A stretch of 64,000 bases of DNA, taken from positions 8,068-72,067 of the forward strand of contig CALEZI010000137.1 in assembly GCA_937928755.1 (NCBI GenBank). Direction: 5' to 3'. Source of the DNA: an uncultured Rhodanobacteraceae bacterium. GTDB lineage: Bacteria > Pseudomonadota > Gammaproteobacteria > Xanthomonadales > SZUA-5. Of the stretch, positions 2,559 to 64,000 are shown one piece after another (the first letter of the stretch is position 1; each line of letters opens with the position of its first letter). The notes under the pieces were generated by a model that worked only from the letters and a program-made list of their open reading frames with translations, was not told where the DNA came from and did not search any database. The translations under genes were made by a program, and so were the position numbers.

Positions 2559-3779
2559 ATGTCCAATCCGAAACCGCGGCCGGTCGTCGGTGCGACCACG
2601 CGCCCCGCAGACGATCTGCGCGGCGCCTCGCGTCTGGCCATCGATGCGGTGACCGGCGTCACCGATCTGGTCGAGGCCATGCATCGAACCATCAGCGGCA
2701 TCGCGCCGCCGATCGGCAAGGCCGTGCCCGGACCAACGGGCGGGATTGCAGGGCTCGTCTATCGCAGCGTGCGCGGCGCCACGCGTCTGGTCGGGCAGGG
2801 TATAGACGCCGCTCTGGCGGCAGCATCGCCGCTGCTGCGCGAGGCACAGCCGATGCCGCTGCGCGATGCGGCGGTGGCGGCGCTCAATGGCGTTTACGGC
2901 GACCACCTCGAACGCAGCAGCAATCCGTTGGCGATTCCGATGACGCTGCGTCGCGGAGGCGTGCCGTTGGCGCTCGATGGCGAGTCGCTGCGGCAATCGC
3001 TGCCCGATCCAGGCCCGCATTTGCTGATCGCTCTGCACGGCCTGTGCATGAACGATCGCCAGTGGTGCCGGAACGGCCACGACCACGCCGCGGCTTTGGC
3101 AACCGAGTTCGGCTACACGCCGATCTACCTGCATTACAACAGCGGTCGCCATGTCGCCGACAACGGCCGCGATTTCTCGCACCTGCTGGAGCAGTTGCTG
3201 GCAACGTGGCCGTTCCCGGTCGAGTCGCTGACATTGCTCGGGCACAGCATGGGCGGCCTGCTCGCGCGGAGCGCTGCGCATTACGCCCAGGCCGAAGGGC
3301 TGTCGTGGACCGGAAAGTTGCGCAGCATGGCCTTTCTCGGCACACCGCATCATGGCGCGCCGCTGGAACGCGCCGGCAACTGGTTCGACACCCTGCTCAG
3401 CCAGAGCCCCTACAGCGCGCCGTTCCTGCGCCTCGGCGAAAGTCGCAGCGCCGGCATCAAGGACTTGCGCTTCGGCCACGTTACCGATGCCGTGCCGCGC
3501 GGACGCCATCGACACGACACGCGCGAGCCGGTGCCGTTGCCCGATGGGGTGCGCTGCTATGCCGTCGCCGCCACCCGCGGTCGTGCCGATCGACCGGTCG
3601 CAAGCCTGCCGAGCGATGGCCTGGTGCCGATCGCCAGCGCGCTCGGGCAGCACCACGATCCGACCCACAGCCTGGCGATCCCCGAGCAGCAGCAATGGAT
3701 CGCGCACCAGTGCAGCCATTTCGACCTGCTCAGCCGCGCCGATGTCTACGCACGCTTGCGCGATTGGCTAGCGTTGTAG
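2559..3779 (+). CDS. alpha/beta-fold hydrolase (serine esterase/lipase-like)
   Basis: 406-aa ORF with the nucleophile-elbow motif GHSMGG (LLGHSMGGLLARSA) and a long N-terminal extension (RLAIDAVTGVTDLVEAMH). Good coding-like composition in this frame only. Confidence 0.7.
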   Translation: MSNPKPRPVVGATTRPADDLRGASRLAIDAVTGVTDLVEAMHRTISGIAPPIGKAVPGPTGGIAGLVYRSVRGATRLVGQGIDAALAAASPLLREAQPMPLRDAAVAALNGVYGDHLERSSNPLAIPMTLRRGGVPLALDGESLRQSLPDPGPHLLIALHGLCMNDRQWCRNGHDHAAALATEFGYTPIYLHYNSGRHVADNGRDFSHLLEQLLATWPFPVESLTLLGHSMGGLLARSAAHYAQAEGLSWTGKLRSMAFLGTPHHGAPLERAGNWFDTLLSQSPYSAPFLRLGESRSAGIKDLRFGHVTDAVPRGRHRHDTREPVPLPDGVRCYAVAATRGRADRPVASLPSDGLVPIASALGQHHDPTHSLAIPEQQQWIAHQCSHFDLLSRADVYARLRDWLAL

Positions 3780-3781
3780 GA

Positions 3782-3870
3782 GTCACGGTCGCCCCCTGGC
3801 GGTGCGCTTGTTCGCGCATCGAACAGAGGCGTGGCAAGACTGCGGCCTGTATTTCAGGACGCAAAGGAAG
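3782..3870. repeat. about 89-bp dispersed repeat unit (gtcacggtcgcccc...tgtatttcaggacgcaaagg)
   Basis: Recurs in inverted orientation at 35912..35996 with only scattered mismatches. Both copies are intergenic and next to GCAAAGGAC repeats. Confidence 0.7.
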
Positions 3871-4034
3871 CTAGTTGGTTTGCCATTAATTCGTTGAATA
3901 ATTTCCGCGCCTTTTGACCCGAATGCGTCGTTGTTCGTCGTCGCCATAGCCCTGCTATGACTCCTCCTCTCGCCTAGCCTCGAGCCAAAATGCATCGGAA
4001 ATTTCTTCAGCCAATTAATGGCAAACCACACTAG
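3871..4034. mobile_element. MITE copy 1 (164 bp) with perfect 22-bp terminal inverted repeats CTAGTGTGGTTTGCCATTAATT
   Basis: Differs from the copy at 56335..56499 by one single-base indel and one substitution, read by eye. Terminal inverted repeats, CTAG at both ends, no coding capacity, lower GC than the flanks. Confidence 0.8.
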
Positions 4035-4042
4035 GGGACTGC

Positions 4043-4150
4043 TTTTTTGTCCGCAAAGGACGCAAAGGACGCAAAGAAGGCCAAGAGCCAAGGTGTTGAT
4101 GGTCTGCTGGCTTTGCGTTCTTTGCGTTCTTTGCGTCCTTTGCGGAAAAA
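4043..4150. repeat. GCAAAGGAC-type inverted-repeat element, copy A
   Basis: Left arm ttttttgtccGCAAAGGACGCAAAGGACGCAAAG. Right arm is its complement (ctttgcgttctttgcgttctttgcgtcctttgcggaaaaa). Central spacer about 34 nt. Confidence 0.85.
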
Positions 4151-4158
4151 GCTCTAGC

Positions 4159-4212
4159 TGTGGGAGCGGGTTCATCCCGCGAAAGCACTCGCGGAGTGAA
4201 TCCGCTCCCACA
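4159..4212. repeat. REP-like hairpin (TGTGGGAGCGG ... CCGCTCCCACA)
   Basis: 11-bp outer stem plus an inner imperfect stem (ttcatcccgcga/tcgcggagtgaa). A second copy lies at 36031..36086. Confidence 0.75.
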
Positions 4213-4378: not shown

Positions 4379-5404
4379 ATGCGTACCTGGATACTCGCCG
4401 CGTTCTGCCTGCTGAACGTCGCGCACGCCGCGGCTCAGACCAGCGCCACCCTCCCTGTCGAGGCATCCACGGTTGAGCAGTCCGATCCCGGAGTGCAGAT
4501 CTTCGATGCCATGGTCGTCAGTGGCGTGCAGCCCGGTCCCGGGCTGTGGCGGGTTTCGAAGGGCGACAACGTCATGTGGGTGCTCGGCACCTTGATGCCG
4601 CTGCCGAAGAAGATGCAGTGGGTGTCGCGCGAGGTCGAGCAGGTGATCGCCGAGTCGCAGGAAGTGTTGCTCGGACCTGGCGCCAAGCTGAAGAAAGAGA
4701 TTGGCATGTTCCAGGGGCTGCTGCTGTTGCCGGCGGCGCTGGGCTCGCGGAAGAATCCCGAGGGCGAAAAGCTGGTGGAGCGAGTGCCGCCCGAACTGTA
4801 TGCGCGCTGGACCCCGTTGAAGGCGAAGTACATCGGCCGCAGCCGCGGCATCGAAAAGCAGCGGCCGTTGTTCGCGGCCTTGAAGCTCTACGAAAAAGCC
4901 ATCAAGAAAAACCGCATGACGCAGGAGAGCGTGGTCCTGCCGCTGGTCAAGAAGATCGCGAAGAAGCACCAGGTACCGGTCAACCGCCCGGAAATCGAAA
5001 TCGACATCGGCAATCCGCGCGAGGCCCTCAACGACTTTGCCGACAGCCATCTGGAGGACCTGGATTGTTTTGCGAGAACGCTCGATCGCCTCGAAACCGA
5101 TCTCGACACCATGCGCGAACGCGCCAACGCCTGGGCGACCGGCGACATCGAGGCGCTGCGGTCGCTGCCGTTCACCGATCAGAACCAGATCTGTGCCGAC
5201 GCCATACTGCACGCCGGTTTCACTCGCGAGCGCGGCCTCGACGACATGCGCGAACGCCTGGGCACGGCTTGGCTGGCGGCAGCCGAGACGGCGTTGAAAC
5301 GCAACAAGTCGACCTTCGCGATCCTGCCGATGCGCGAGGTGGTCAGCGCCGGGGGATACCTCGAAACTTTGCGCGCGCGTGGGTACGAGGTCGAGGAACC
5401 TTGA
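4379..5404 (+). CDS. TraB/GumN family protein (secreted/periplasmic)
   Basis: Signal peptide MRTWILAAFCLLNVAHAAAQ. LWRVSKGDNVMWVLGT... and AWATGDIEALRSL segments resemble GumN-family proteins. Assigned from memory of the family, not by search. Confidence 0.55.
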   Translation: MRTWILAAFCLLNVAHAAAQTSATLPVEASTVEQSDPGVQIFDAMVVSGVQPGPGLWRVSKGDNVMWVLGTLMPLPKKMQWVSREVEQVIAESQEVLLGPGAKLKKEIGMFQGLLLLPAALGSRKNPEGEKLVERVPPELYARWTPLKAKYIGRSRGIEKQRPLFAALKLYEKAIKKNRMTQESVVLPLVKKIAKKHQVPVNRPEIEIDIGNPREALNDFADSHLEDLDCFARTLDRLETDLDTMRERANAWATGDIEALRSLPFTDQNQICADAILHAGFTRERGLDDMRERLGTAWLAAAETALKRNKSTFAILPMREVVSAGGYLETLRARGYEVEEP

Positions 5405-8491: not shown

Positions 8492-8659
8492 GGGGCAGGG
8501 GGCAGGGGGGCAGGGGCCGAGCCATGTGTCATTTCCGTACCGTGGCGATGATCGATGCAACCGCCTGTGCGATTGGTCGCGCGTCGAGCGTGAGACAGAG
8601 TCCCATCTTGCATCATGGTCTGAGCAAGCGCCGAGGTGGGTCCCCTGCCCCTTGCCCCC
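8492..8659. repeat. G-tract / C-tract long-range inverted repeat (potential G-quadruplex or long stem)
   Basis: 8492-8516 = GGGGcaGGGGGcaGGGGGGcaGGGG. 8642-8659 = CCCCtgCCCCttgCCCCC, its imperfect complement. The arms are about 125 nt apart, in the spacer between the DUF3299 gene and murD. Confidence 0.55.
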
Positions 8660-8681
8660 TCTGCATTGCCGCCCTCGCAAC

Positions 8682-19837: not shown

Positions 19838-21319
19838 ATGCCCGCACGATCGGAAAGTTCACCGCTCAGGTTGGCATGGAGCGCGCAACTGGCCACCGGG
19901 CGACCGGAATTGGATGCAGAGCATCAGCGGTTGATCGAGTTGATCAACCAGGTCGGCCGACTGCATCAGGGCGAGGCCAATGCGGAGCAACTGCGCGGCG
20001 CGCTTCGCGAACTGCGCGATTACACCGTTTACCACTTTCGCACCGAAGCGCAGTTGATGCTGCGCTACCCGATCGACGCCGGCTTTCGCCGCAGTCATCT
20101 GGCGGCGCACGCCGGATTCGTGCAGCGCCTCGACGAGTTCGATGAACTGGTGGCAACCGATTCCGGTGCCGTAGTCGAATGCCTGTTGGCCTTCATGGTC
20201 AAGTGGCTGGTGCACCACGTCACGCGCGTGGATGCGCGCCTGGCGCGCGACGTTGCCGCGTTCGAATCGGGAACCGCGCCGTCGCACGTCACCGATTCAC
20301 ACGGCGATCGTGTAGACAGCCTCATCGAAAGCGTCAGCGACCTTTACGAGGGCATGGCCGAGCGCACCATCGAGTTGTTGCGGGCGAATCGACAGTTGAA
20401 GTCGGAAATCGCCAGACGTCGGCAGGCAGAACATGATCTGCGCATTTCCGCGATCGTGTTCGACGCCATCGACGAGGCGGTCATGGTGACCAGCGCCGAC
20501 AACCAGATCATTCGCGTCAATTCGTCGTTTTCGCGCATTACGGGATTCGCCGCCGACGAGGCGATCGGCGCCAATCCGCGCATCATGTCGAGCGGTACGC
20601 ATCCCCCGGAGTTCTACCGGGAACTCTGGTCGGCCGTGGTGAACAACGGCAAATGGCAAGGCGAGATCCGCAACCGACGCAAGAACGGCGAGCTGTACGT
20701 GGAGTGGCTGTCGATCTACCGGGTGCGCGACGACAGCAACGGCGAACTCAGGCACGTGGCGGTTTTTTCGGACATCACCAAACAACGGGTCGAAGCCGAT
20801 CGCATTCAGTATCTGGCCAACTACGACCTGTTGACCGGGTTGCCAAACCGGGCGCTGCTGATCGACCGCTTGCGCCAGCAACTGGCGTCGGCCAGCCAGA
20901 ACCGCAGCAAGCTGGCGCTGATGTTCATCGATCTGGATTTGTTCAAGGCAGTCAACGATGGGCTCGGTCACGATGTCGGCGATCTGCTGCTGAAGCTGGC
21001 TGCGCAGCGCATGGCGGATTGCGTGGGAGCGGCGGACACCGTGGCACGCCATGGCGGCGATGAGTTCGTGGTGCTGCTGCCGCACATCGTGGACAGCATC
21101 GAAGCGGTCAACGTGGCCCATCGCCTGCGGATCGCCCTGTGCCAGCCGTTCGATCTGCGCGGCCACTTCGCCACGATCTCCTGCAGCATCGGCGTTGCCA
21201 TTCATCCCGAACATGGTGCCGACGAACTGCAATTGCTCAAGAGTGCCGACACTGCGATGTACCGTGCCAAGGTCAATGGACGCAACGGCGTCTGCTGCGA
21301 GGAATTGTCGGCCTTGTGA
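19838..21319 (+). CDS. hemerythrin-like domain / PAS / GGDEF diguanylate cyclase
   Basis: Hemerythrin ligand pattern (DAEHQRL, YHFRTEAQL, LAAHAGF, WLVHHVTRVD). PAS segment (VMVTSADNQIIRVNSSFSRITGF...). GGDEF domain (RHGGDEFVVLL). No RxxD I-site seen before GGDEF. Alternative TTG start at 19820. Confidence 0.85.
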   Translation: MPARSESSPLRLAWSAQLATGRPELDAEHQRLIELINQVGRLHQGEANAEQLRGALRELRDYTVYHFRTEAQLMLRYPIDAGFRRSHLAAHAGFVQRLDEFDELVATDSGAVVECLLAFMVKWLVHHVTRVDARLARDVAAFESGTAPSHVTDSHGDRVDSLIESVSDLYEGMAERTIELLRANRQLKSEIARRRQAEHDLRISAIVFDAIDEAVMVTSADNQIIRVNSSFSRITGFAADEAIGANPRIMSSGTHPPEFYRELWSAVVNNGKWQGEIRNRRKNGELYVEWLSIYRVRDDSNGELRHVAVFSDITKQRVEADRIQYLANYDLLTGLPNRALLIDRLRQQLASASQNRSKLALMFIDLDLFKAVNDGLGHDVGDLLLKLAAQRMADCVGAADTVARHGGDEFVVLLPHIVDSIEAVNVAHRLRIALCQPFDLRGHFATISCSIGVAIHPEHGADELQLLKSADTAMYRAKVNGRNGVCCEELSAL

Positions 21320-30948: not shown

Positions 30949-32075
30949 GGGTCATCGGTGGCGGCCAGCTTGCACGCATGCTGGCGTTGGCGGCGTCACC
31001 GCTGGGGATTCGCGTGCATGCGCTGGATCCTGCAGTCGATGCCTGCGCCGGCGACGTCGCGCCACTCGAAGTAGCCGCGTTCGACGATCTGGTCGCGCTG
31101 CATCGTTTTGCCGATCTGTGCAACGCGATCACTTTCGACTTCGAGAACGTATCGGCGCCGGCGCTGGCGGAATTGGCGGCGGTGCGACCGGTGCGGCCCA
31201 ACCCGCTGTCGCTCGCCACGGCGCAGGATCGCGCTGCCGAGAAGGCTTTGTTCGCGCGCATCGATACCGCCGTGGCGCCGTTCGCCGTCATCGATGATGC
31301 GCAGCAGATGGCCGCCGCCGAGGCCAGCGTCGTCTTTCCTGCCATCCTCAAGACGCGCCGATTCGGCTACGACGGCAAGGGTCAGATCAGCGTCGCGGAT
31401 GCCGGATTGCTGGAAGATGCCTACACCAGGCTCGGCAACGCACCCTGCGTGCTGGAATCGAGGGTGCGCTTCCAGCGCGAGCTATCGCTGGTCGCCGTGC
31501 GCGCACTGAATGGCGATTTTCGCTGTTACCCACTGGTGGAGAACATCCACGTCAACGGCATCCTGTCGGTCACGCTGGCGCCCGCCGAAGTCGCGCCGAC
31601 GCTGGCCGCTGAGGCCGAGCGCTGCGCGCGCCGGGTCGCCGACGCCCTGGATTACGTCGGCGTGCTGGCGATCGAGTTCTTCGATGTCGATGGTCAGTTG
31701 GTGGCCAACGAAATGGCGCCACGGGTCCACAACAGCGGACACTGGAGCATCGAAGGTGCCGTGACCAGCCAGTTCGAGAACCACATTCGCGCGGTGGCCG
31801 GGCTGCCGCTGGGGGATACCGCTGCGCGCGGCGTCTCCTGCATGTTGAACTGGATCGGCGAGTTGCCGGATCGCAATCGCGCACTGCAGGTGCCGGGCCT
31901 GCACTGGCACGACTATGGCAAGTCGGCGCGCGCGGGGCGCAAGGTTGGACATGCCACGATCACCGCACCAGATCGGGTCATGCTGGCGAACCGGCTGCGT
32001 CAGGCGGCCGAGTATCTCGATCGCCAGATACAGATTGAACCGGCGATCGCCCGGTTATCCGCGCCGGTTTTGTAG
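30939..32075 (+). CDS. purK: 5-(carboxyamino)imidazole ribonucleotide synthase
   Basis: [18 protein letters not shown]-grasp body ([20 protein letters not shown]). Overlaps purE by 10 nt. Confidence 0.9.
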
Positions 32076-32122
32076 GTGGAACCCGCGCCAGCGGATTCCA
32101 CCGAAACCATCGCGTCGAGGTG

Positions 32123-32154
32123 ATGAATCCTTCGCCTTGCGGCGAAGGATTCAT
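32123..32154. terminator. hairpin between convergent purK and sodB
   Basis: atgaatccttcgcc-ttgc-ggcgaaggattcat perfect 14-bp stem. No strong U-tract. Confidence 0.5.
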
Positions 32155-32165
32155 GCTGCGCGCGA

Positions 32166-32744: not shown

Positions 32745-32831
32745 GGTTCGGGTCCTCTCAGGTTCGGGGAATCGTGAATGCTAACGCTTCGATCGGGGAA
32801 GCGGCGTGAGTGTCGCTTGCCGGCGTTCGGG

Positions 32832-32907
32832 CTTCTGGTGGGTCCAGACTTGGACGCTTCAGGTGTTCCGGTGGGAAGAGCGTCCAGACAAGTCTGGACC
32901 CACCAAC
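32832..32907. repeat. inverted pair of GGGTCCAGAC/GTCTGGAC units
   Basis: cttctggtgggtccagacttggacgc ... gcgtccagacaagtctggacccaccaac, between sodB and the HAAO gene. Confidence 0.75.
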
Positions 32908-32935
32908 AGCGTGCCGGCGCCTGCCAGCACCCGCT

Positions 32936-33463
32936 TCATCCGTACTTCGCCGGTGCCGGATTCAGATGTCCGCACGCCTTGCAGGTGCGATTCGCGTTCG
33001 ACCGGTAGAAGCGATCGAACACCGCCGGGAATTGCGTCTCGATGTTTTCGAGCACGAAGAACTCCTCGTACAGCTTGTGGTTGCAGGACTCGCAATACCA
33101 CTGCAACCCATCGCGCTCATGCGCCAGGCGCTTGCGCTCGATCACCAGGCCGATCGAATTGGCCAAACGTTGCGGCGAATGCGGCACGCCCGGGGGCAGG
33201 TAATAGATCTGACCGGCGCGGATCGGCACATTGCGTGGCTGCCCGTCGATCTGCAGGCGCAGCACCATCTCGCCTTCGACCTGATAAAAGAACTCGGGGC
33301 CTTCCTCGACGTGGTAATCGGTACGCTGATTCGGTCCGCCGACGATCATCACGATGAAATCGCCGTCGACGATGCACTTGTTGCCCACCGGCGGTTTCAG
33401 CAGATGGCGGTGCTCGTCGATCCAGCCCTGGAAGTCGATCGGTACGGTCCACATGGCGTTCAC
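32936..33463 (-). CDS. nbaC: 3-hydroxyanthranilate 3,4-dioxygenase
   Basis: [42 protein letters not shown], and C-terminal rubredoxin-like CESC...CKAC. Confidence 0.9.
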
Positions 33464-33513: not shown

Positions 33514-33646
33514 CTTGTCCGCAAAGGACGCAAAGGACGCAAAGAGAGCCAGGACGACAGCTGCCAAGCGGCAACACGATGGGCCGAGCATCATTGAACG
33601 GTTGATTCAGCTTTCCTTTGCGTCCTTTGCGTTCTTTGCGGACAAG
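33514..33646. repeat. GCAAAGGAC-type inverted-repeat element, copy B
   Basis: cttgtccGCAAAGGACGCAAAGGACGCAAAG ... ctttcctttgcgtcctttgcgttctttgcggacaag. Spacer about 65 nt. Confidence 0.85.
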
Positions 33647-33648
33647 AA

Positions 33649-34089
33649 TCACAGGCCCGGAAGCACCGCAGGCGCCGCCGCCACGCACTTTAGCTCGATC
33701 GCGATCGGTGTTGGCAGGGCATTGATGCCGAGTGTGGTGCGGCAGGGTGCGGTTTCAGGATCGGGGAAGTACTCGGCCCAGATGCGGTTGTAGATCTTGA
33801 AGTCGCGCGCCATGTCGGTGAGGTACACGGTAACGTCGACGAGGTCCTCCCAACCGGCGCCGCAGGCTTCGAGCACGGCGCGCACATTGGCGAACACCGA
33901 GTGGCACTGCGCGGCGATGTCGTAGCCGACCAGGTTGCCGGCCGCATCGTGGACGTTGCCGGGGATCGAGTTGTCCTGCGGCGAACGTGGGCCGATGCCG
34001 GACAGGAACAGCAGGTCGCCGACACGCCGCGCGTGGGGGTAATGGCCTACTGGCTTCGGCGCGGCCTGGGCTTGGATCGAATTGGTCAT
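33649..34089 (-). CDS. RidA family protein (possible 2-aminomuconate deaminase)
   Basis: YjgF/RidA pattern (VGDLLFLSGIGP..., VDVTVYLTDM, CRTTLGINALP). Internal ATG 34089 (MTNSIQ). Confidence 0.8.
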   Translation of the reverse strand: MTNSIQAQAAPKPVGHYPHARRVGDLLFLSGIGPRSPQDNSIPGNVHDAAGNLVGYDIAAQCHSVFANVRAVLEACGAGWEDLVDVTVYLTDMARDFKIYNRIWAEYFPDPETAPCRTTLGINALPTPIAIELKCVAAAPAVLPGL

Positions 34090-34127
34090 GCGCTTCGCTC
34101 TCCTCGGAGGAAAGTAAGTCGGGTAGA

Positions 34128-34200
34128 TCACGTTGGCCCGAAACGGCCTACGTGACAATGGCTCGTTGCGGTGTCACGTAGGCCCTGCGGGCCAACGTGA
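34128..34200. repeat. inverted pair of 27-bp hairpin units (TCACGTTGGCC...GGCCTACGTGA)
   Basis: tcacgttggcccgaaacggcctacgtga and tcacgtaggccctgcgggccaacgtga, in the spacer between the aldehyde dehydrogenase and RidA genes. Confidence 0.7.
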
Positions 34201-34211
34201 CCTACGCCGCT

Positions 34212-35666
34212 TCAATAGTGGATCGCCACATTCTTCGGCTCGGTGAAAAAGCGCATCGCTTCGACGCCTCCTTCGCGACCCAGGCCCGACTGTTTGACGC
34301 CGCCGAACGGTGTGCGCAGGTCGCGCGCCATCCAGCAGTTGATCCAGACGATGCCGGCTTCCACGGCTGCGGCGAAGCGATGCGCGCGCGCCAGGTCGCG
34401 GGTCCACAGCGAGCAGGCGAGTCCGTATGGCGTGCAGTTCGCAAACGCCAGCGCCTGCGCATCGTCGTCGAACGGTGTCAGTGTCGCCAGCGGGCCGAAC
34501 ACCTCTTCGGTGTTGACGCGACAGTGCGCATCGAGCTGATCGAACACCGTCGGCGCCAGGAAATAACCCTCTCGGCAGCGCCCGTCGAGCGTGATGCGCC
34601 GGCCGCCAGCGAGCAGGCGACCGCCCTCTTCGTGCGCCAGGTCGATGTAAGCCTGCACCTTGGCGAGGTGCGCCGCCGAAACCAGCGCTCCCATGTCGCT
34701 GGCGGGGTCGCGCGGATCGCCGACGACCAGTTCGGCGACCCGGGCCAGGAAGGCCTCGCGAAAGCGCGGCAGCAGCGAGCGCTCGACCAGGATGCGCGAG
34801 CCACACAGGCAGATCTGGCCCTGGTTGGAGAAGGCCGCGCGCACACTCTCGTTGACGCTGCGCTCGAAATCGCAGTCGGCGAACACCACCGTGGCGTTCT
34901 TGCCGCCCATCTCCAGCGACAGCTTCTTGAACTGCGTCGCCGTCGCCGCTGCAATGGCGGCGCCGGTAGCGGTGCTGCCGGTAAAGGAGACCGCCTTGAC
35001 CCTCGGGTGTACCACCAGAGCCTGACCACAGCGCGGACCGCCGCCGTGCACGATGTTGAGCACACCCGGCGGCAGGCCGGCGGCCTGGACGATCTCGCCC
35101 AGCAACCACGCGCTGACCGGCGTGATCTCGCTCGGCTTGGCAATCACGCAGTTGCCGGCCGCCAGCGCCGGCGCGATCTTCCAACTGAACAGGTACAGCG
35201 GCAGATTCCATGGGCTGATGCAGCCGACCACACCGAGCGGCTGGCGCAGCGTGTAGTTGAGCGTGCCGGCCTCGCCGTGATGGCTCTCGGATGCCTGACT
35301 CTCGGCCATCGCCGCGAAGAAGCGAAAATTGGCGACGGCCCGCGGAATGTCGACGCTGCACGCGACCTTGACCGGTTTGCCGCTGTCCCGCGACTCCTCC
35401 TCGGCCAATGAGTCGAGGCGCGCTTCGATCAGATCGGCAATGCGTCTGAGCAGGTTCGCGCGCTGGCTCGGCGGCGTTGTCGCCCAGCCGCGCTCGGCGC
35501 GCCGAGCGGCGGCGACCGCGGCGTCGATGTCGGTAGCCCCCGAGTCGGGCACCTCGGCGTAAACCTTGCCGGTCGCCGGCTCGACCACCGGCAGGTAGGC
35601 CCCCGTCGCCGGCGCCCGGTAGTCGCCATCGATGAAGTTGGTCAGTCGCAGCAGGGAATCGCGCAT
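34212..35666 (-). CDS. NAD-dependent aldehyde dehydrogenase (2-aminomuconate-6-semialdehyde dehydrogenase-like)
   Basis: ALDH motifs FTGSTATG, LEMGGKNA, QGQICLCGSR (catalytic Cys), EEVFGP. The specific product is inferred from the neighbouring HAAO and RidA genes. Confidence 0.8.
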   Translation of the reverse strand: MRDSLLRLTNFIDGDYRAPATGAYLPVVEPATGKVYAEVPDSGATDIDAAVAAARRAERGWATTPPSQRANLLRRIADLIEARLDSLAEEESRDSGKPVKVACSVDIPRAVANFRFFAAMAESQASESHHGEAGTLNYTLRQPLGVVGCISPWNLPLYLFSWKIAPALAAGNCVIAKPSEITPVSAWLLGEIVQAAGLPPGVLNIVHGGGPRCGQALVVHPRVKAVSFTGSTATGAAIAAATATQFKKLSLEMGGKNATVVFADCDFERSVNESVRAAFSNQGQICLCGSRILVERSLLPRFREAFLARVAELVVGDPRDPASDMGALVSAAHLAKVQAYIDLAHEEGGRLLAGGRRITLDGRCREGYFLAPTVFDQLDAHCRVNTEEVFGPLATLTPFDDDAQALAFANCTPYGLACSLWTRDLARAHRFAAAVEAGIVWINCWMARDLRTPFGGVKQSGLGREGGVEAMRFFTEPKNVAIHY

Positions 35667-35818
35667 GGCATCCGAAGTTTCGCGGGACGTGATCCGCTAC
35701 CGTTATACGACGTTTGATCGGGAGTCCAGCCAGAGCCTTTTGTCCGCAAGGGTGAGGCGGGCTTTCGAGCGGCATGCTGCGAGCCGTCGAACGGCCACCA
35801 GCTCGCTGGTGGACCGGG

Positions 35819-35922
35819 CCACGCAAAGGACGCAAAAACAGCAGATGCCAGCGGCCATTCATGAAAGTCCTGGCTGTTGATCTCCTTTGCGTCCTTTGCG
35901 TCCCTTAGCGTCCTTTGCGTCC
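35819..35922. repeat. GCAAAGGAC-type inverted-repeat element, copy C
   Basis: ccacGCAAAGGACGCAAAAAC ... cctttgcgtcctttgcgtcccttagcgtcctttgcgt. Confidence 0.75.
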
Positions 35923-36111: not shown

Positions 36112-36903
36112 TCACAACGCCAGCGTACGCCCGCCGTCCACTGCGATGCTGACGCCGGTGATGTAGGACGCCGCCGGCGAGGCCAGGAAGGCGATCGCGT
36201 TGGCAACTTCGCTGGCGTCGGCGAAACGGCCCATCGGCACCACGCTCATCATGCCTTTGGCGACCTCATCCTCGCCGAGGCCGCTGCTGCGCACCTTGCC
36301 GGCGATCAGGCCGTCCAGTCGCGCGGTACGCGTGAAACCCGGCAGCACGTTGTTGACGGTGATGCCCTCCGGCGCCAGTTCGGTGGCCAGCGTCTTCGCC
36401 CACGAGGCGACCGCGCCGCGCACCGTGTTCGACACGCCGAGACCCTTGATCGGTTCCTTCACCGAGGTCGAGATCACATTGACGATGCGACCGTAGCCGG
36501 CCGCACGCATGCCCGGCAGGACCAGGCGCGTCAGCAACTGGTTGCACAGCAGGTGCTGGCCGAAGGTGTCGAGGAAGGCCTGCTCCGAGGCGTGCTCGAT
36601 CGGGCCCGGCGGCGGGCCGCCGGTGTTGTTGATCAGGATCTGCGCCGGATGCGCCGCCAGCCACTCGCCGACGATGCGTTCCAGCCGCGCGCGATCGGCG
36701 TAGTCGGCATGCAGCGCATGCGGGCGCCCGCGGCCCGCGGCCTTCAATTCCACCAGCGCCGCCGCCAGCCGCAGCGGATCGCGTCCGATCACCGTGACAT
36801 CGGCGCCGAGGGTAGCCAGTTCCAGCGCGGCCGCGCGGCCGATGCCCTGGCTGCCGCCGCCGACCAGCGCGTGATGGCCTGTGAGGTCGAGATGCATGGG
36901 CAC
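36112..36903 (-). CDS. SDR family oxidoreductase
   Basis: GGGSQGIGRA cofactor motif, NNTGG, and YxxxK-equivalent region (SNTVRGAVASWAKTLA). 263 aa. Confidence 0.8.
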   Translation of the reverse strand: MPMHLDLTGHHALVGGGSQGIGRAAALELATLGADVTVIGRDPLRLAAALVELKAAGRGRPHALHADYADRARLERIVGEWLAAHPAQILINNTGGPPPGPIEHASEQAFLDTFGQHLLCNQLLTRLVLPGMRAAGYGRIVNVISTSVKEPIKGLGVSNTVRGAVASWAKTLATELAPEGITVNNVLPGFTRTARLDGLIAGKVRSSGLGEDEVAKGMMSVVPMGRFADASEVANAIAFLASPAASYITGVSIAVDGGRTLAL

Positions 36904-36968: not shown

Positions 36969-37088
36969 TTTTTGTCCGCAAAAAACGCAAAGGGCGCAAA
37001 GGAAAGCAGATCCTGGAAGTCGGCGCGCGGTCGGCCTTGCGCCACCTGCTCTCGCTCTCTTTGCGTTCTTTGCGACCTTTGGCGGACC
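36969..37088. repeat. GCAAAGGAC-type inverted-repeat element, copy D (degenerate)
   Basis: tttttgtccGCAAAAAACGCAAAGGGCGCAAAGGaaag ... ctctctttgcgttctttgcgacctttggcggacc. Confidence 0.7.
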
Positions 37089-37129: not shown

Positions 37130-39181
37130 TCAGCGCATCCCCTTGAGGCGCATGCGGAACTCGACACCGGCCATGTCCGGCAGGTTGCTGGCGCTCGCAT
37201 CGCCCTGGTGCAGTTCGGCGACCAGGCGCACGATGTAGAGGCCCAGGCCCAGGTGCGGGGATACCGTGGCGCGACCATCGCGCACCGAAATCAGTGAATC
37301 GAACAAACGGTCCTGCATCTTCTGCGGCAGCGGCGGGCCGTTGTTCGACAGCACCAGGTCGACACTGCCCAACTTCAGCTCCAGCGCCAGCTTGATCCAG
37401 CCGCCGGGCGGACAGAAGCCAAGCGCATTGTCGACCAGCTTGTCGAGCGCTTGATGGATCAGTTCGGGAGCGCCGTGGAAGGGCACCGGGAAATCCGGTA
37501 CCACCAGGCGGAAATCGCGGTCTTCGGCGAGGTCTCGATAGCCGGCCGCGGCGCCATTCAGAAATTCGCGCAAGTCGAAATCTTCGGCCTCAGCGGCAGC
37601 GATCGCGCTCTCGATGCGCGATGCCTGCGACAGCGTGCGCAGCAGCGCACCGAGGCGCTCGGCGCCGGAGCGTGCGCGCTCGGCATAGATGCGCGCCGAC
37701 TCGGTCATCGCCTCCTGCTCAAGGTTCTCCAGCGACGACTTGACCACCGCCAGCGGCGTCGCCAGTTCATGCGAAAGCTTGCCACCGAGGGTGCGCAGAT
37801 AGTCAGTGTAAGCGCTGACCTGGTCGAGCAGTCGGCCAAAGCTGCGCGACAGGTCGCCGATCTCGTCGACCGCGTTGGAGCGCGGAAAGTTGCCGACCAC
37901 GCGGCCTTCGATGGTGAGCGCATTTTCGGCCGCATTGCGCAGTTTGCGAATGCGCCAGGACAGATAACCGGCGTACCCGAACAGGATCGCCGCAGCAACC
38001 AGCATCGTCAGCAGTCCACCCAGCAACAGGCTGCCGAGCGCGCGGTTGGTCCACAACAGCAGCGCGTCGCTGGTCTGTTCGAGCATTACGACGCCGACCA
38101 CATCGCTGCCATGCAGCACCGGAATGGTCACGGTGAGGATCACGCTGGCCTGGCTGGCGGCGGGGCGCCAGTTGGCGCCAGGGGTGCCGGTCAAGGTCGC
38201 ATCCACCTGGGTATTGGTCAGGCGCAGCAGGTTGAAGGCATAGCCGTCGCCGCGCGACATCTCCGGCGCCAGCAGATGGCGGTACACCAGCGCGCGTAGC
38301 CAGCGCAGGAAGGACAAGTCGTTGTCGTCGTCCGACGTATCGCTGCCGGGCCGCAGGCTGCCGCTTCGCGCGAGCACATAGCCCATGCGATCGAGCACGC
38401 GCAGACGGGCATTGTCCGGCACCAGGTTGCGCAGCAGTGGACTTTCCTGCCACAACAGGGCCAATGGCCGATAGCGCAGTCCGCGGACTGCGGTGCTCGC
38501 CGTTGCGCGTGGCAGGTCGGCGCCGGAAACCGGGTAATCGCGCACTTCGATGGCGAGATCGAAGACTGGATCGGCGATCGGCAGCTTCAGCTCCAGGCGA
38601 TAGCCGCCGCTGCGTTCGATCCAGGCGGCCGGCAGTGCGAAGCTCGGCTCGCGGCCGTCCGCCCCGGCCAGCGGTTGCGCAGCGGTGACGCCCTGGACGC
38701 TGCGAGCCACGCGCCAGCGCCGTTCGCCAAAACGATCGCGCAGCGAGATCTCGACATGGTCGGCGCGCTCGCCGAAGGATCCATCGACCGCAGTGGTCAC
38801 CGAGGTGATGTCATCCACATCCAGCCACAGGTTGACCGCCCCCGGACCCTGGCCGACATAGAGTTTCGCGTTCAGGCCGGCGCCGGGGCTGTACAAGGCC
38901 TCAGGATCGATATGCCAGGAACCCCAGTCGTCGGCGTAGCCGTCGGCGTCGATGTCGATGCGCATCGGCCGCGCATGCAATACGGCGGGTGCGACCAGCG
39001 CGGCGCGCAAGGCGGGCTCGGCAACCGGCAAGGCGGTCGCCAGCGTGCGCGCCGACGCCATCAGCGCGCGCTCCTGGCTTTCGCGCAGCGCGGTTTCCAT
39101 CTGCACGATGAAGCGCCAGCCGGCGAGCGGAAACACCGCGGCGACCAGCGCAATCAGCAGCAGTTTCAGGCGTAGCGGCAT
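37130..39181 (-). CDS. sensor histidine kinase with large periplasmic domain, HAMP, HisKA and HATPase_c
   Basis: N-terminal TM, about 330-aa extracytoplasmic region, second TM (LLLGGLLTMLVAAAILFGYAGYL), H-box KLSHELATPLAVV, N/G boxes (DKLVDNALGF, GLGLYIVRLV). No response regulator gene adjacent. Confidence 0.85.
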   Translation of the reverse strand: MPLRLKLLLIALVAAVFPLAGWRFIVQMETALRESQERALMASARTLATALPVAEPALRAALVAPAVLHARPMRIDIDADGYADDWGSWHIDPEALYSPGAGLNAKLYVGQGPGAVNLWLDVDDITSVTTAVDGSFGERADHVEISLRDRFGERRWRVARSVQGVTAAQPLAGADGREPSFALPAAWIERSGGYRLELKLPIADPVFDLAIEVRDYPVSGADLPRATASTAVRGLRYRPLALLWQESPLLRNLVPDNARLRVLDRMGYVLARSGSLRPGSDTSDDDNDLSFLRWLRALVYRHLLAPEMSRGDGYAFNLLRLTNTQVDATLTGTPGANWRPAASQASVILTVTIPVLHGSDVVGVVMLEQTSDALLLWTNRALGSLLLGGLLTMLVAAAILFGYAGYLSWRIRKLRNAAENALTIEGRVVGNFPRSNAVDEIGDLSRSFGRLLDQVSAYTDYLRTLGGKLSHELATPLAVVKSSLENLEQEAMTESARIYAERARSGAERLGALLRTLSQASRIESAIAAAEAEDFDLREFLNGAAAGYRDLAEDRDFRLVVPDFPVPFHGAPELIHQALDKLVDNALGFCPPGGWIKLALELKLGSVDLVLSNNGPPLPQKMQDRLFDSLISVRDGRATVSPHLGLGLYIVRLVAELHQGDASASNLPDMAGVEFRMRLKGMR

Positions 39182-39265: not shown

Positions 39266-39407
39266 GCAGGAGCGACGTGTACGTCGCGACCTTATCGCAT
39301 GACGGTCGCGGCGCTAACTCCTGCGACGTGTCGATCCTTGTCGGCGCGCCTGCGCGCGCGACGCTGCCAGGGCGTATCGACGGTCGCGACGTACACGTCG
39401 CTCCTAC
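39266..39407. repeat. inverted pair of AGGAGCGACGTGTACGTCGCGACC units
   Basis: 24-bp arms at 39268-39291 and 39382-39405 are perfect reverse complements. A partial third copy (tcctgcgacgtgtcga) lies between them. The right arm ends a few nt from the dnaB stop. Confidence 0.8.
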
Positions 39408-40859: not shown

Positions 40860-41022
40860 TTTTTTGGTCCGCAAAGGACGCAAAGGACGCAAAGAGAAGC
40901 ATTGACACGAAGTGAGTGCGGATTTCCTTGTGATCACGCCAAGCGCTGCCGGGAGCTTTCGCGACCCCTTCAAAGTCTATCTTGCTTCTCTTTGCGTCCT
41001 TAGCGTCCTTTGCGGACAAAGG
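40860..41022. repeat. GCAAAGGAC-type inverted-repeat element, copy E
   Basis: ttttttggtccGCAAAGGACGCAAAGGACGCAAAGagaagc ... gcttctctttgcgtccttagcgtcctttgcggacaaagg. Spacer about 85 nt. Lies between dnaB and rplI. Confidence 0.85.
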
Positions 41023-41040
41023 CTCTTTCCCGGAAGCCAC

Positions 41041-41082
41041 AAAAGCGAAAGCCCGCGATACCTCTCGGCATCGCGGGCTTTC
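41041..41082 (-). terminator. rho-independent terminator after rplI
   Basis: On the minus strand: gaaagcccgcgat-loop-atcgcgggctttc followed by gcttttgt. Confidence 0.7.
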
Positions 41083-56295: not shown

Positions 56296-56334
56296 CCGGC
56301 GCCGTCGGCGGGTTTTGGCCGCCGGAGATCTCGA

Positions 56335-56499
56335 CTAGTGTGGTTTGCCATTAATTCGTTGAATCATTTCCGCGCCTTTTGACCCGAATGCGTCGTTGTT
56401 CGTCGTCGCCATAGCCCTGCTATGACTCCTCCTCTCGCCTAGCCTCGAGCCAAAATGCATCGGAAATTTCTTCAGCCAATTAATGGCAAACCACACTAG
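56335..56499. mobile_element. MITE copy 2 (165 bp), CTAG-flanked, 22-bp perfect terminal inverted repeats
   Basis: ctagtgtggtttgccattaatt...aattaatggcaaaccacactag. Near-identical to 3871..4034. Its right-hand CTAG contains the TAG stop of the deacetylase gene. Confidence 0.85.
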
Positions 56500-62204: not shown

Positions 62205-62410
62205 GCTCTGGCGGGTCCAGACTTGTCCGGACGCCCTTCTTCCTTCGCTCTGGTGGGTCCAGACTTGTCTGGACGCTCATATTCCATCGCTCTGGTGGGT
62301 CCAGACTTGTCTGGACGCTTTTCTTCCATCGCTCTGGTGGGTCCAGACTTGTCTGGACGCTCTTCTTCCTTCGCTCTGGTGAGTCCAGACAAGTCTGGAC
62401 CCACCCAAGC
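62205..62410. repeat. tandem array: 5 units of 42 bp built on the GGGTCCAGAC-TT-GTCTGGAC hairpin
   Basis: Unit starts at 62205, 62247, 62289, 62331 and 62373. The 30-bp core gctctggtgggtccagacttgtctggacgc is separated by 12-bp T/C-rich linkers. The last unit is the inverted form (gagtccagacaagtctggacccaccc). Confidence 0.9.
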
Positions 62411-62441: not shown

Positions 62442-64000
62442 CTACGGGAACAAGCGGATCACGAACCCATCGTGGTCGGAAATCCGCACCGGGCTCCATT
62501 CGTTGGGCGACTCGAACCCGCTTTTCAGTCCGTCGTCGCCATAGGTCAGCACATTGGCCAGGGTGCGGGTGAAGATCAGCGGCGCGTCGACGTTGCCGCG
62601 GCCATAACTGATGCCGACAAACGCCGACTGCGCCGCCGTCGTCAGCAGCGCGTGATCCAGCACTTGCAGCGCGTTGCCGAAGAAATAGCTGTAACGCTCC
62701 TGCGCCGGCAGCGATTCCACGGCGTTGCTCATGTTGGGTTCGACGATGTCCGCCAGCGGCGCCAGCAGACTGTCGGGGTTCGCATCGCCGGCCAGCTTGG
62801 CGCTCCCACGAATGGTGCCGATGGTATCGACATGGCCATCGGTGAACTGGAAGGCGTTGTGGTCGCCGACGACCACCAGCGGCACGGTTGGATTGGCGCT
62901 CTGGAAGGTCTGCACGAAGCGGGCGATCGATTCGGACTGTTCCAGGCGCTTGCGGCACAAACGCTCACCGGCGCCGCGGCAGTCGTTGATGCCGACGAAT
63001 GAGCGGGTGTGATTCACGATCACCGAAAACGGCCGGTTGCCGCTGGTGAACACAGCTTCCAATTGATACGGCGGTCGATCGTGCAGGCAGGAATCCGGGT
63101 TGTCGAAAGTGAACACCTCGTCCTTGCCGAGTTGGGTCAGCGTGAAGCCAGGATTGACCCGTCCGCTGCGCACCAGGAAGCCCGAATCGATGCCGCCGAC
63201 ATCGCTGCCCTCGGCCAGATGTGCCGTGTAGATCAGCGTCGGGTCATCCAGCGCGATCTTCGCTGCGAGGGTTTCGAGCACGCCGACGTTTTCGACTTCC
63301 TGCACCGCGACCACATCCGGCGCGCGCAACACATTGCGAATGTACGACGAGAATTTGGCCATGCGCCGGCTGTACTCGCCGTCCTCGGACACTTCGTTGC
63401 AGTCGCTGAGGTTGGTGCAGGTCTGGAGACCGAAACAATTGGTCGATGCCTGGTTGTTGGCCGTTGTCGTATCGAAGAAGCGCAGCATGTTCAATGAACC
63501 GATGGTCAGGTTGCCCGGCGCGGCAGCGGCCACCGGACGCGGCATCGGTGCGTCCTGCAGGATGGTCAGGCTGGTCGGCCACAGTTCGTAGTCGCCGAAG
63601 TCGTAACCGATCACGCCCTCGGCGGCGAAACGGGTGCCACCATTCATGACGCGGTTGGGCATGCCGAGCTTGTCCGGATCGATCTCGAAGGTCTCCGGGT
63701 TCAGGTCCCAGATCGGGATCGAGGCCGGGATGCCGGCGTAACCCGGTGTTTCCAGGCCGACTTCACGAAAGCCGCGCGCGGAGCCGGCCGCGATCACCGG
63801 TTCGGCGATCGGGTCGGTGGCGAAGCGCTGGTTCGGCGCGGTGACCACGCCATCCGCAATCGCCACGCGCATCCCCTCGATGCACTCGAAATTGGCGAAC
63901 TCGACATTCGCATTGCTGAAGCACGACGGCGTGGTCAGCAGCGGCGACGGGAAATTCGCGTCCAGCGCCACCGGCGCCGGCAGCGCGCCGCTGCCGACCA
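62442..64000 (-). CDS. endonuclease/exonuclease/phosphatase family protein (ExeM/NucH-like extracellular nuclease), 5' end outside window
   Basis: Open frame from the stop at 62442 to the window edge. EEP-like blocks (GSLNMLRFFD, VVAVQEVEN, VIVNHTRS, VVGDHNAF, RISDHD). Confidence 0.65.
   Translation of the reverse strand, partial: VGSGALPAPVALDANFPSPLLTTPSCFSNANVEFANFECIEGMRVAIADGVVTAPNQRFATDPIAEPVIAAGSARGFREVGLETPGYAGIPASIPIWDLNPETFEIDPDKLGMPNRVMNGGTRFAAEGVIGYDFGDYELWPTSLTILQDAPMPRPVAAAAPGNLTIGSLNMLRFFDTTTANNQASTNCFGLQTCTNLSDCNEVSEDGEYSRRMAKFSSYIRNVLRAPDVVAVQEVENVGVLETLAAKIALDDPTLIYTAHLAEGSDVGGIDSGFLVRSGRVNPGFTLTQLGKDEVFTFDNPDSCLHDRPPYQLEAVFTSGNRPFSVIVNHTRSFVGINDCRGAGERLCRKRLEQSESIARFVQTFQSANPTVPLVVVGDHNAFQFTDGHVDTIGTIRGSAKLAGDANPDSLLAPLADIVEPNMSNAVESLPAQERYSYFFGNALQVLDHALLTTAAQSAFVGISYGRGNVDAPLIFTRTLANVLTYGDDGLKSGFESPNEWSPVRISDHDGFVIRLFP

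What the first reader, a model, noticed from the sequence alone, without database searches (positions are those of the whole stretch)
4043..4150. Inverted-repeat element family whose arms are tandem 9-mers (GCAAAGGAC): five copies in 64 kb
Copies lie at 4043-4150, 33514-33646, 35819-35922, 36969-37088 and 40860-41022. Each has a left arm TTGTCC(GCAAAGGAC)2-3 and a complementary right arm ending GGACAA, with 9-mer variants GCAAAGAAC, GCAAAGGGC and GCTAAGGAC. The central spacers are about 34 to 85 nt and poorly conserved. All copies are intergenic, including inside the rplI-dnaB spacer and an apparent operon. Conserved arms with variable centres and a strict 9-bp periodicity are not the usual REP/BIME pattern. 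I cannot place this family in any described repeat class from memory. It could be a protein-binding array, a structured RNA or terminator module, or a non-autonomous mobile element.
Basis: seen in the sequence. Interest (0 to 1): 0.7.

Follow-up and report, generated by a model that had tools for sequence, protein, structure and literature searches.

The report
Nonamer-array hairpin repeats shared across phyla
The five loci are real copies of a non-coding hairpin repeat whose arms are three tandem CGCAAAGGA units, and the same polar array turns up, apparently undescribed, in intergenic DNA of bacteria from more than ten phyla, which no mechanism tested here explains.

Summary
Five inverted-repeat elements with 9-nt periodic arms lie at the stated coordinates (17 motif hits against 0.03 expected). 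All five are intergenic.

The building block is a polar module: T-rich lead, (G)GTC, about three CGCAAAGGA units, then a purine-rich tail. Here two modules face each other 25-95 nt apart and fold into 30-38 bp hairpins on either strand.

The elements are not intrinsic terminators. They match no Rfam family. They are not classical MITEs: their centres are unrelated, whereas a true MITE in the same window is about 99% identical over its full length.

The host is a Lysobacterales bacterium from sludge metagenomes. Strains differ by whole 9-nt units. Related species carry elements in different spacers, so the family turns over.

The same array, with the same polarity and a mode of three units, occurs in at least 109 loci. 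These include Nostocales, Planctomycetota, Verrucomicrobiota, Chloroflexota and Burkholderiales. It was not found in 5,426 E. coli genomes.

The closest described relatives are the heptamer SSR arrays (STRR-like) of Xanthomonas and Nostoc, whose function is also unknown.

The best reading is a self-propagating or recurrently generated intergenic repeat whose main effect is a stable RNA stem-loop. The cross-phylum sequence identity remains unexplained.

The parts
4043..4152 (.). Element E1. Left module 4043-4085 (TTTTTTGTC + CGCAAAGGA x2 + CGCAAAGAAG...). Right module 4111-4152 (four units, tip GCGGAAAAAGC). 25-34 nt centre. Lies between a PGAP1-like hydrolase gene (2559-3779 +) and a TraB/GumN gene (4379-5404 +). 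Directly flanked by a MITE (3870-4034) and a REP-like hairpin (4159-4212).
   Evidence: RNA fold -71.4 / -62.9 kcal/mol, z about -10 to -11
33514..33646 (.). Element E2. Arms 33514-33544 and 33616-33646 (three units each, tips CTTGTCC / GGACAAG). 71-nt centre. Starts 2-5 nt after the stop of the RidA-like gene (33649-34158 -) and ends 51 nt before the start of the 3-HAO gene (32936-33463 -).
   Evidence: A related Lysobacterales species has an element in the same spacer.
35819..35922 (.). Element E3, degenerate. Left array 35822-35837 (two units, no tip). Right array 35883-35922 (about four units with one 10-nt unit). A possible orphan tip CTTTTGTCCGCAAGGG lies at 35737-35752. Lies between the SDR gene (36112-36903 -) and the aldehyde dehydrogenase gene (34212-35666 -).
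   Evidence: z -5.3 / -2.9
36970..37087 (.). Element E4, degenerate. Left module 36970-37004 (TTTTGTC CGCAAAAAA CGCAAAGGG CGCAAAGGA). Right module 37057-37087 (...CTTTGCGTTCTTTGCGACCTTTGGCGGAC). Lies between the histidine kinase gene (37130-39181 -) and the SDR gene.
   Evidence: z -3.1 / -3.8
40864..41020 (.). Element E5. Arms 40864-40901 and 40983-41020 (38 nt, 95% complementary). 81-nt centre. Lies between the rplI terminator (41083-41046, minus strand) and the dnaB start (40783).
   Evidence: (-86.2 kcal/mol, z -8.9). A 98%-identical strain lacks exactly one 9-nt unit at 41003-41011.

Best explanation
The five loci are copies of a dispersed, non-coding repeat. Its building block is a polar module of about 27-40 nt: a T- or A-rich lead, a short tip ending in C (GTC here, AAC in Nostocales, CAC in others), usually three CGCAAAGGA nonamers, and a purine-rich tail.

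In this Lysobacterales genome two modules sit face to face, tails inward, 25-95 nt apart around unrelated DNA. Either strand therefore folds into a 30-38 bp hairpin as RNA or single-stranded DNA.

The family behaves like the intergenic short-tandem-repeat arrays (STRR-like heptamer arrays) already described in Xanthomonas and Nostoc:
- It is confined to spacers.
- It is depleted between divergent genes.
- It gains and loses whole units by slippage between strains.
- It is gained and lost between related species.

Most likely (inferred) it is self-propagating or recurrently generated DNA that is tolerated downstream of genes and terminators. It is probably not a host-designed signal. Its main physiological consequence (inferred, not shown) is a very stable stem-loop in read-through transcripts. 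Such a stem could be cut by RNase III or could block 3' exonucleases, as REP elements do. It does not act as an intrinsic terminator.

What keeps the nonamer sequence nearly identical across phyla is not explained by this reading.
For: Shown:
- Non-random, intergenic, period-9 inverted arms.
- Very stable folds on both strands.
- Arms conserved but centres unrelated. A real MITE in the same window is about 99% identical over its whole 165 nt.
- Whole-unit polymorphism: one unit fewer in a 98%-identical strain, and a two-unit difference between L215 and L216.
- Turnover between syntenic Lysobacterales relatives. There is an element in the RidA/3-HAO spacer of L215 and L216. The rplI-dnaB and SDR-ALDH spacers of L215 have none; rplI-dnaB holds a heptamer array instead. 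L214 has an element in its sodB-purK spacer, where the window has none.
- None in about 80 loci of more distant DnaB relatives and none in E. coli. The distribution is therefore patchy.
- In 109 other genome loci about 95% of arrays are intergenic. Inverted pairs lie in 23 tandem, 9 convergent and 3 divergent spacers. Single arrays show no strand bias relative to transcription (22 sense, 21 antisense).
- No protein family is recurrently linked.
- The same architecture (convergent inverted pairs of intergenic SSR arrays, transcribed, function unknown) is described for the heptamers of Xanthomonas and Nostoc (PMC4692102).
- Array-bearing repeats are present in metatranscriptome contigs.
Against: - No clean empty site, target-site duplication or mobilising gene was found, so propagation is inferred from patchiness and turnover only.
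- A purely selfish or neutral repeat should drift. Yet the 27-nt core is nearly identical in more than 10 phyla, and each arm stays close to consensus without compensation in the partner arm (186 one-arm changes against 36 shared changes). This points to a sequence-specific constraint that the explanation does not supply.
- No RNA data exist for the source organism, so the RNA stem-loop effect is untested.
Confidence: 0.45

Rival explanations
1. The nonamer array is a sequence-specific binding platform, in DNA or RNA, for a trans-acting factor that is itself patchily distributed or horizontally mobile. The hairpin is secondary. The inverted pair simply presents the polar site in both directions.
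For: - Each arm keeps the consensus sequence more than the pair keeps complementarity.
- Three units is the mode in 115 of 192 arrays across phyla, although the search required only two.
- Polarity is conserved: the tip ends in C in about 81% of arrays and the tail is purine-rich.
- In Nostocales the array sits unpaired in the loop of hairpins built from other inverted repeats.
Against: - No recurrently linked gene in 109 loci.
- No strand bias relative to transcription.
- Absent from E. coli and from most relatives, so no universal host factor can be the partner.
- A 9-bp spacing does not put sites on one face of B-DNA.
- No known motif matched. CsrA and boxA resemblances were considered from memory only, and their taxonomic distribution does not fit.
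Confidence: 0.2
2. Host-selected cis-acting RNA hairpins placed between cistrons to set differential mRNA stability or processing (RNase III sites or 3'-exonuclease barriers), as shown for some REP elements.
For: - Stems of 30-38 bp with z-scores down to -11 on both strands.
- All five copies lie between co-directional genes. E2 lies inside an operon-like string 2-5 nt after a stop codon.
- Cognate arms share the same non-consensus change more often than shuffled partners do (36 against 18 +/- 4).
- An element occupies the same RidA/3-HAO spacer in a species with about 82% protein identity.
Against: - Most arm substitutions are uncompensated (186 one-arm changes).
- E3 and E4 are decaying.
- Three of four orthologous spacers differ in occupancy between relatives.
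- Single unpaired arrays dominate in Nostocales.
- No RNA data for this organism.
Confidence: 0.17
3. Classical MITE: terminal inverted repeats recognised by a transposase encoded elsewhere in the genome, with whole-element cut-or-copy transposition.
For: - Terminal inverted arms of 31-40 nt.
- Many copies (5 in 64 kb).
- Presence/absence differences between species.
- In some genomes copies share longer genome-specific flanks (Planctomycetota L047 and L055).
Against: - Centres are unrelated in sequence and length, unlike the genuine MITE in the same window.
- No target-site duplication is visible at any of the five copies.
- The flanking T-run and A-run are inverted, not direct.
- Single arms and tips-inward pairs exist elsewhere.
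- No transposase is recurrently nearby.
Confidence: 0.1
4. Rho-independent (possibly bidirectional) transcription terminators.
For: Strong hairpins in intergenic DNA, some downstream of genes.
Against: - On both strands the T-run lies 5' and the A-run 3' of the hairpin. This is the reverse of a terminator.
- Loops are 25-95 nt.
- rplI has its own canonical terminator (17-bp stem plus CTTTTGTGG) just before E5.
- E2 lies inside an operon-like string.
Confidence: 0.03

Closest known systems
GGGAATC / GGGGA(C/T)T heptamer repeat arrays of Xanthomonas and Nostoc (Rehm et al. 2015, PLoS One, PMC4692102), and the cyanobacterial STRR heptamers they cite (Calothrix PCC 7601)
   Same: - Short tandem units in intergenic DNA, with a preferred small unit number.
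- Frequent convergent inverted pairs able to form stem-loops (70-75 pairs per Xanthomonas genome).
- Depletion between divergent genes.
- Length variation between close relatives.
- Transcribed, with no known function.
- The same two host groups (Xanthomonadales/Lysobacterales and Nostocales).
- Heptamer arrays adjoin or replace the nonamer elements in related loci. The window itself has a G-rich heptamer inverted pair at 8492-8662.
   Different: - The unit is 9 nt and has no G-runs, so no quadruplex can form.
- The module is polar, with a defined tip and a purine-rich tail.
- The modal number is three units rather than four.
- The unit sequence is essentially identical across many phyla, whereas the heptamers differ between Xanthomonas and Nostoc.
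REP / BIME / REPIN elements (for example Bertels and Rainey 2011, PMC3116915)
   Same: - High-copy intergenic palindromic DNA.
- Occurs as inverted doublets.
- Clusters with other repeats in the same spacers.
- Likely forms stem-loops in mRNA.
- Patchy, lineage-specific expansion.
   Different: - The single arm is not itself a palindrome.
- No GTAG-type head.
- The spacing between the two arms is not fixed.
- No RAYT gene was seen (only 64 kb was available).
- REP sequences are species-specific, whereas this core is shared across phyla.
MITEs (the 165-nt element in this same window, 3870-4034 and 56334-56499, serves as an internal example)
   Same: Terminal inverted repeats, small size, intergenic location, multiple copies.
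   Different: - Centres are not homologous between copies.
- No target-site duplication.
- Arms consist of tandem 9-mers.
- Single arms occur on their own in other genomes.
Small dispersed repeats (SDR, 21-27 nt) of Nostoc punctiforme (Elhai et al. 2008, Genome Res 18:1484). This is a lead from memory and from citation 43 in PMC3116915. The paper could not be read here.
   Same: - A very small (about 25-27 nt) module.
- Found nested inside other repeats and next to heptamer arrays in Nostocales.
- Proposed to be mobile without an obvious enzyme.
   Different: Whether any SDR family has the sequence (CGCAAAGGA)3 could not be checked. SDRs were described only in cyanobacteria.

Membership tests
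Intergenic SSR arrays in inverted pairs (STRR-like; Rehm 2015) | Head-to-tail short units (up to 9 nt) with whole-unit length variation between close relatives | tested here: met
   TRF finds period 9. One unit is missing in a 98%-identical strain. L215 and L216 differ by two units.
Intergenic SSR arrays in inverted pairs (STRR-like; Rehm 2015) | Strong intergenic bias, depletion between divergent genes, frequent convergent inverted pairs | tested here: met
   All five window copies are intergenic. Across 109 loci, pairs lie in 23 tandem, 9 convergent and 3 divergent spacers. There are 35 tails-inward pairs against 10 tips-inward pairs.
Intergenic SSR arrays in inverted pairs (STRR-like; Rehm 2015) | G-rich heptamer unit able to form a G-quadruplex | tested here: not met
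   The unit is the 9-mer CGCAAAGGA with no G-runs.
REP / REPIN | Each unit is an imperfect palindrome of 20-40 nt with a conserved GTAG-like head | tested here: not met
   The arm is a direct-repeat array. Only a 4-bp GTCC/GGAC mini-palindrome exists at the tip in Lysobacterales, and none in Nostocales.
REP / REPIN | Doublets with family-specific fixed spacing | tested here: not met
   Spacers are 25-95 nt in the window and 13-198 nt elsewhere.
REP / REPIN | A cognate RAYT (IS200-like) gene in the genome, flanked by the repeats | not testable with these tools
   Only 64 kb of the genome is available. No recurrent neighbouring protein family was found in 109 8-kb loci.
MITE | Terminal inverted repeats | tested here: met
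   Arms of 31-40 nt at 90-97% complementarity.
MITE | Copies homologous over their whole length, including the centre | tested here: not met
   Only the arms align (alignment A1). The control MITE in the window is about 99% identical over 165 nt.
MITE | Target-site duplication flanking each copy | tested here: not met
   No direct repeats flank E1-E5. The T-run and A-run flanks are inverted.
Intrinsic terminator | GC-rich stem with a short loop, followed by a 3' U-tract | tested here: not met
   The U-tract is 5' of the stem on both strands and loops are 25-95 nt. The scan flags the rplI terminator next to E5 but none of the elements. Its rule allows loops of only 3-8 nt, so it could not have flagged them; the negative rests on the flank sequences.
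Any Rfam 15 RNA family | Covariance-model match at the gathering score | tested here: not met
   No hit in the window at gathering or at E<=5 over the elements. No hit in 18 other array-bearing loci.
Small dispersed repeats (SDR) of Nostoc | Sequence identity to one of the eight published SDR consensus sequences | not tested
   The paper is not held in the library.

The most novel reading that the evidence does not exclude
The triple nonamer C-CGCAAAGGA-CGCAAAGGA-CGCAAAG is a trans-phylum, sequence-specific module. It would be a very small mobile or enzymatically written element shared by Lysobacterales, Burkholderiales, Nostocales, Planctomycetota, Verrucomicrobiota, Chloroflexota, Acidobacteriota and others, possibly one archaeal MAG. 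Under this reading it is copied or recognised by an unidentified, horizontally spreading activity, for example a templated repeat-adding or integrating enzyme. That would make it a new class of genomic repeat, not a local REP-like curiosity.
Probability: 0.25. Interest if true: 0.85.

Novelty: new variant of a known kind. Interest (0 to 1): 0.62.

Why it matters
- Short intergenic repeat arrays in Xanthomonas and Nostoc have stood unexplained for decades. This family adds an unusually sharp handle: a defined, polar 27-nt sequence that is nearly invariant across phyla yet patchy within them.
- That combination makes phylogenetic profiling for a cognate enzyme or binding factor feasible. The same approach exposed RAYTs for REPs.
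- If such a partner exists, it would define a new kind of very small mobile or written DNA.
- Practically, these hairpins break metagenome assemblies; several contigs end at E5.
- They insert very stable stems into operons such as rplI-dnaB, which may affect mRNA processing in uncultured Lysobacterales.

Tried and rejected
1. Rfam at gathering and permissive thresholds, on the window and on 18 other loci: nothing at the elements.
2. Full-text searches for the 13- to 18-mers and for nonamer-repeat terms: no relevant paper.
3. Elhai 2008 SDR paper: not held.
4. Search for a linked gene, by all-against-all BLASTP of ORFs from 109 loci: no recurrent family.
5. DnaB relatives from metagenomes as empty-site comparators: the best hit (87%) has different synteny and the rest are 66% or less, with no arrays.
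6. RNA-seq for the source organism: none listed.
7. Metatranscriptome contigs for a Sphaerospermopsis locus: they show only that array-bearing repeats occur in RNA-derived contigs. They give no strand or end information and are confounded by repeat collapse.
8. Viral contigs: 13 of 14 hits are coding DAKDAK peptide repeats and only one (L212) has the non-coding architecture.
9. Plasmids: five weak hits, four of them cyanobacterial.
10. Cognate versus non-cognate flank similarity: a small excess, confounded by lineage, so not used.
11. Resemblances considered from memory and rejected or left untested:
   - CsrA GGA motifs: the taxonomic range does not fit cyanobacteria or Betaproteobacteria.
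   - NusB/E boxA: weak similarity.
   - The elemental pause consensus: out of register.
   - Rho YC spacing: cyanobacteria lack Rho.
   - IS6 and ISL3 terminal repeats: no tandem structure.
   - Small ORFs: no start codons or conserved frame.

Full report
**Observation**

The sequence at 4043-4150 reads TTTTTTGTC-CGCAAAGGA-CGCAAAGGA-CGCAAAGAAG, then a short centre, then the reverse complement of a four-unit array ending GCGGAAAAAGC. The other four loci have the same plan.

- GCAAAGGACGCAAAGGAC with up to 3 mismatches occurs 17 times, only inside the five elements. Dinucleotide shuffles give 0.03.
- TRF calls period-9 arrays in both arms.
- The inverted-repeat finder gives arms of 31-40 nt at 90-97% complementarity for E1, E2 and E5.
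- E3 and E4 are degenerate. E3 lacks the tips and has one 10-nt unit.
- Aligning the ten arms gives the consensus TTTTTGTCCGCAAAGGACGCAAAGGACGCAAAGAAAGCCAA. Similarity stops there and the centres (25-95 nt) are unrelated.

**Context**

GC3-selected ORFs and Pfam place every copy in a spacer.

- E1 lies between a PGAP1-like hydrolase gene and a TraB/GumN gene.
- E2 lies between a RidA-like gene and the 3-hydroxyanthranilate dioxygenase gene.
- E3 lies between an SDR gene and an aldehyde dehydrogenase gene.
- E4 lies between a histidine kinase gene and the SDR gene.
- E5 lies between rplI and dnaB.

All five spacers lie between co-directional genes. Both strands fold into long hairpins (-47 to -86 kcal/mol, z from -3 to -11).

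The flanks are 5'-T-run...A-run-3' on both strands, the reverse of a terminator. rplI has its own canonical terminator at 41083-41046, just before E5. The terminator reading is therefore rejected.

No Rfam family matches.

**Whose genome**

Identical or 98-100% identical contigs come from sludge-bioreactor metagenomes. The closest named homologues of the 3-HAO protein are from Lysobacterales, Rhodanobacteraceae and Dokdonella MAGs.

**Evolution within the lineage**

- Strains at 99.8-100% identity carry unchanged elements.
- A 98% strain lacks exactly one 9-nt unit in the right arm of E5.
- Several metagenome contigs end at E5.

Two syntenic relatives could be fetched.

- L215 and L216 are the same species, with 3-HAO 82% identical to the window's. 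Their RidA/3-HAO spacer also holds a tails-inward nonamer element. Its centre is unrelated to E2, and its left arm has six units in L215 and four in L216 (CGCAAAG, then CGCGAAG repeats, then CACAAAG). The variant CGCGAAG is matched by CTTCGCG in the right arm.
- The rplI-dnaB spacer of L215 has no nonamer element. It has a (GGCACGG)12 heptamer array and a GGTCCAGACTTGTCTGGAC palindrome instead. Its SDR-ALDH spacer has no array. Its HK-SDR spacer is 2.2 kb and full of heptamer arrays.
- L214 (3-HAO 88% identical) has a nonamer element between sodB and purK, where the window and L215 have none. Upstream of its 3-HAO gene it has CCCCAGN heptamers, not the nonamer.
- About 80 loci around more distant DnaB homologues carry no array.

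The family is thus lineage-restricted. It turns over between species and changes by whole units between strains.

**Not a classical MITE**

The window contains a genuine MITE: 165 nt, 29-nt terminal repeats, at 3870-4034 and 56334-56499. Its two copies are about 99% identical across the whole length. The nonamer elements share only their arms. No target-site duplication is visible at any copy.

**The wider family**

Chance expectation for an 18-mer in 596 Gb, both strands, is about 17; that figure is my own arithmetic, not a tool result. Features the search did not require show that most loci are related.

- 93 of 109 loci have a third unit.
- Three units is the mode: 115 of 192 arrays.
- The three bases before the first unit are AAC, CAC, GTC or TAC in 105 of 132 arrays.
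- The array is followed by a purine-rich tail.
- About 95% of arrays are intergenic.

Hosts include many Nostocales (isolates and complete genomes), Lysobacterales/Rhodanobacteraceae, Burkholderiales, Planctomycetota, Verrucomicrobiota, Lentisphaeria, Chloroflexota, Acidobacteriota, Gemmatimonadota, Deltaproteobacteria, Fibrobacterota, Elusimicrobiota, Bacteroidia, Treponema, Parachlamydiaceae, Methylomirabilota and one archaeal MAG. GC content and flanks are lineage-typical, so cross-contamination is unlikely.

- Arrays occur as tails-inward pairs (35), tips-inward pairs (10) or singly (about 100, mostly Nostocales).
- In Nostocales the array sits unpaired in the loop of hairpins formed by other inverted repeats.
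- Pairs lie in 23 tandem, 9 convergent and 3 divergent spacers. Single arrays have no strand bias relative to transcription.
- No protein family recurs nearby.
- The motif is absent from 5,426 E. coli genomes. It is rare on sequenced plasmids. In viral contigs it is almost always a coding DAKDAK repeat.
- RNA-derived contigs from four freshwater metatranscriptomes cover an array-bearing repeat of Sphaerospermopsis. This shows transcription at least by read-through. DNA carry-over cannot be excluded.

**Pairing or sequence?**

Across 38 tails-inward pairs, cognate arms share the same non-consensus base at 36 positions, against 18 +/- 4 with shuffled partners. Yet 186 changes are in one arm only. 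Each arm is held near the consensus more than the pair is held complementary. Together with the unpaired Nostoc arrays, this points to a constraint on the sequence itself, or to repeated regeneration from a template.

**Comparison with what is known**

The nearest described class is the intergenic heptamer arrays of Xanthomonas (GGGAATC) and Nostoc (GGGGA(C/T)T). These arrays:

- are mostly intergenic;
- are depleted between divergent genes;
- have a preferred unit number;
- occur 70-75 times per Xanthomonas genome as convergent inverted pairs;
- are transcribed;
- vary in length between relatives;
- have no known function (PMC4692102).

The nonamer family shares all of this, and even the host groups. 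It differs in unit length, in lacking G-runs, in having a defined polar tip and tail, and in near-identity of the unit across phyla. REP/REPIN and MITE membership fail on defining features (see the membership table). Whether the Nostoc array equals one of Elhai's SDR families could not be checked.

**Verdict**

The finding is real and is a true family. It is best filed as a new variant of the STRR-like intergenic repeat arrays that form inverted pairs.

My best mechanistic reading (confidence about 0.45) is a self-propagating or recurrently generated DNA repeat tolerated in spacers. Its main effect would be a very stable stem-loop in read-through RNA. The propagation step and the RNA effect are inferred, not shown.

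The unexplained residue is an almost invariant, polar 27-nt non-coding sequence that is patchily distributed across more than ten phyla. That residue is what makes the finding worth following up.

Noticed in passing
window 3870-4034 and 56334-56499: A 165-nt MITE-like element with 29-nt terminal inverted repeats (CTAGTGTGGTTTGCCATTAATT...). The two copies are about 99% identical over their full length. The first copy abuts nonamer element E1.
   Followed up: partly
window 8492-8516 and 8640-8662: An inverted pair of G-rich heptamer arrays, (GGGGCAG)n and (CCCCTGC)n, about 125 nt apart. This is the same architecture as the Xanthomonas GGGAATC pairs described in PMC4692102.
   Followed up: partly
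window 62205-62400 (also 32831-32910; L215 about 650-680): A 42-bp tandem repeat (4.7 copies) built around the palindrome GGTCCAGACTTGTCTGGACC. A single inverted copy lies at 32831-32910. The same palindrome sits in the rplI-dnaB spacer of the relative L215.
   Followed up: no
window 4159-4212 (and GTGGGAGCG at 21023, 36032, 54400; CGCTCCCAC at 62801): A REP-like hairpin, TGTGGGAGCGGGTTCATCCCGCGA / TCGCGGAGTGAATCCGCTCCCACA, lies immediately right of E1. Related heads are scattered through the window.
   Followed up: no
window 39268-39405: A perfect 24-nt inverted repeat, AGGAGCGACGTGTACGTCGCGACC, with a 90-nt spacer in the dnaB / histidine kinase spacer. This is another Xanthomonadales-style palindromic repeat.
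   Followed up: no
L215 549-630, 4480-4978; L020, L027, L029, L108: Long heptamer arrays fill the spacers of related Lysobacterales: (GGCACGG)12, (GTCCCGA)20, (CGGGGCA)4.6 and (CGGGACT)n. They often directly adjoin nonamer modules.
   Followed up: partly
window about 41014-41049 (ends of L116, L117, L118): Several independent metagenome contigs of the same strain end at or next to element E5. The hairpin repeat breaks short-read assemblies.
   Followed up: no
window 31977-32157: A sub-threshold Rfam match to Burkholderia sRNA ncS011 (27.5 bits against a gathering score of 48, E = 0.004) in the purK-sodB spacer. It is probably just the terminator hairpin there.
   Followed up: no
L120 9986-11764: The closest DnaB homologue in metagenomes (87%) is 592 aa, against 456 aa here, and lies in a different gene neighbourhood. 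It may carry an insertion such as an intein.
   Followed up: no
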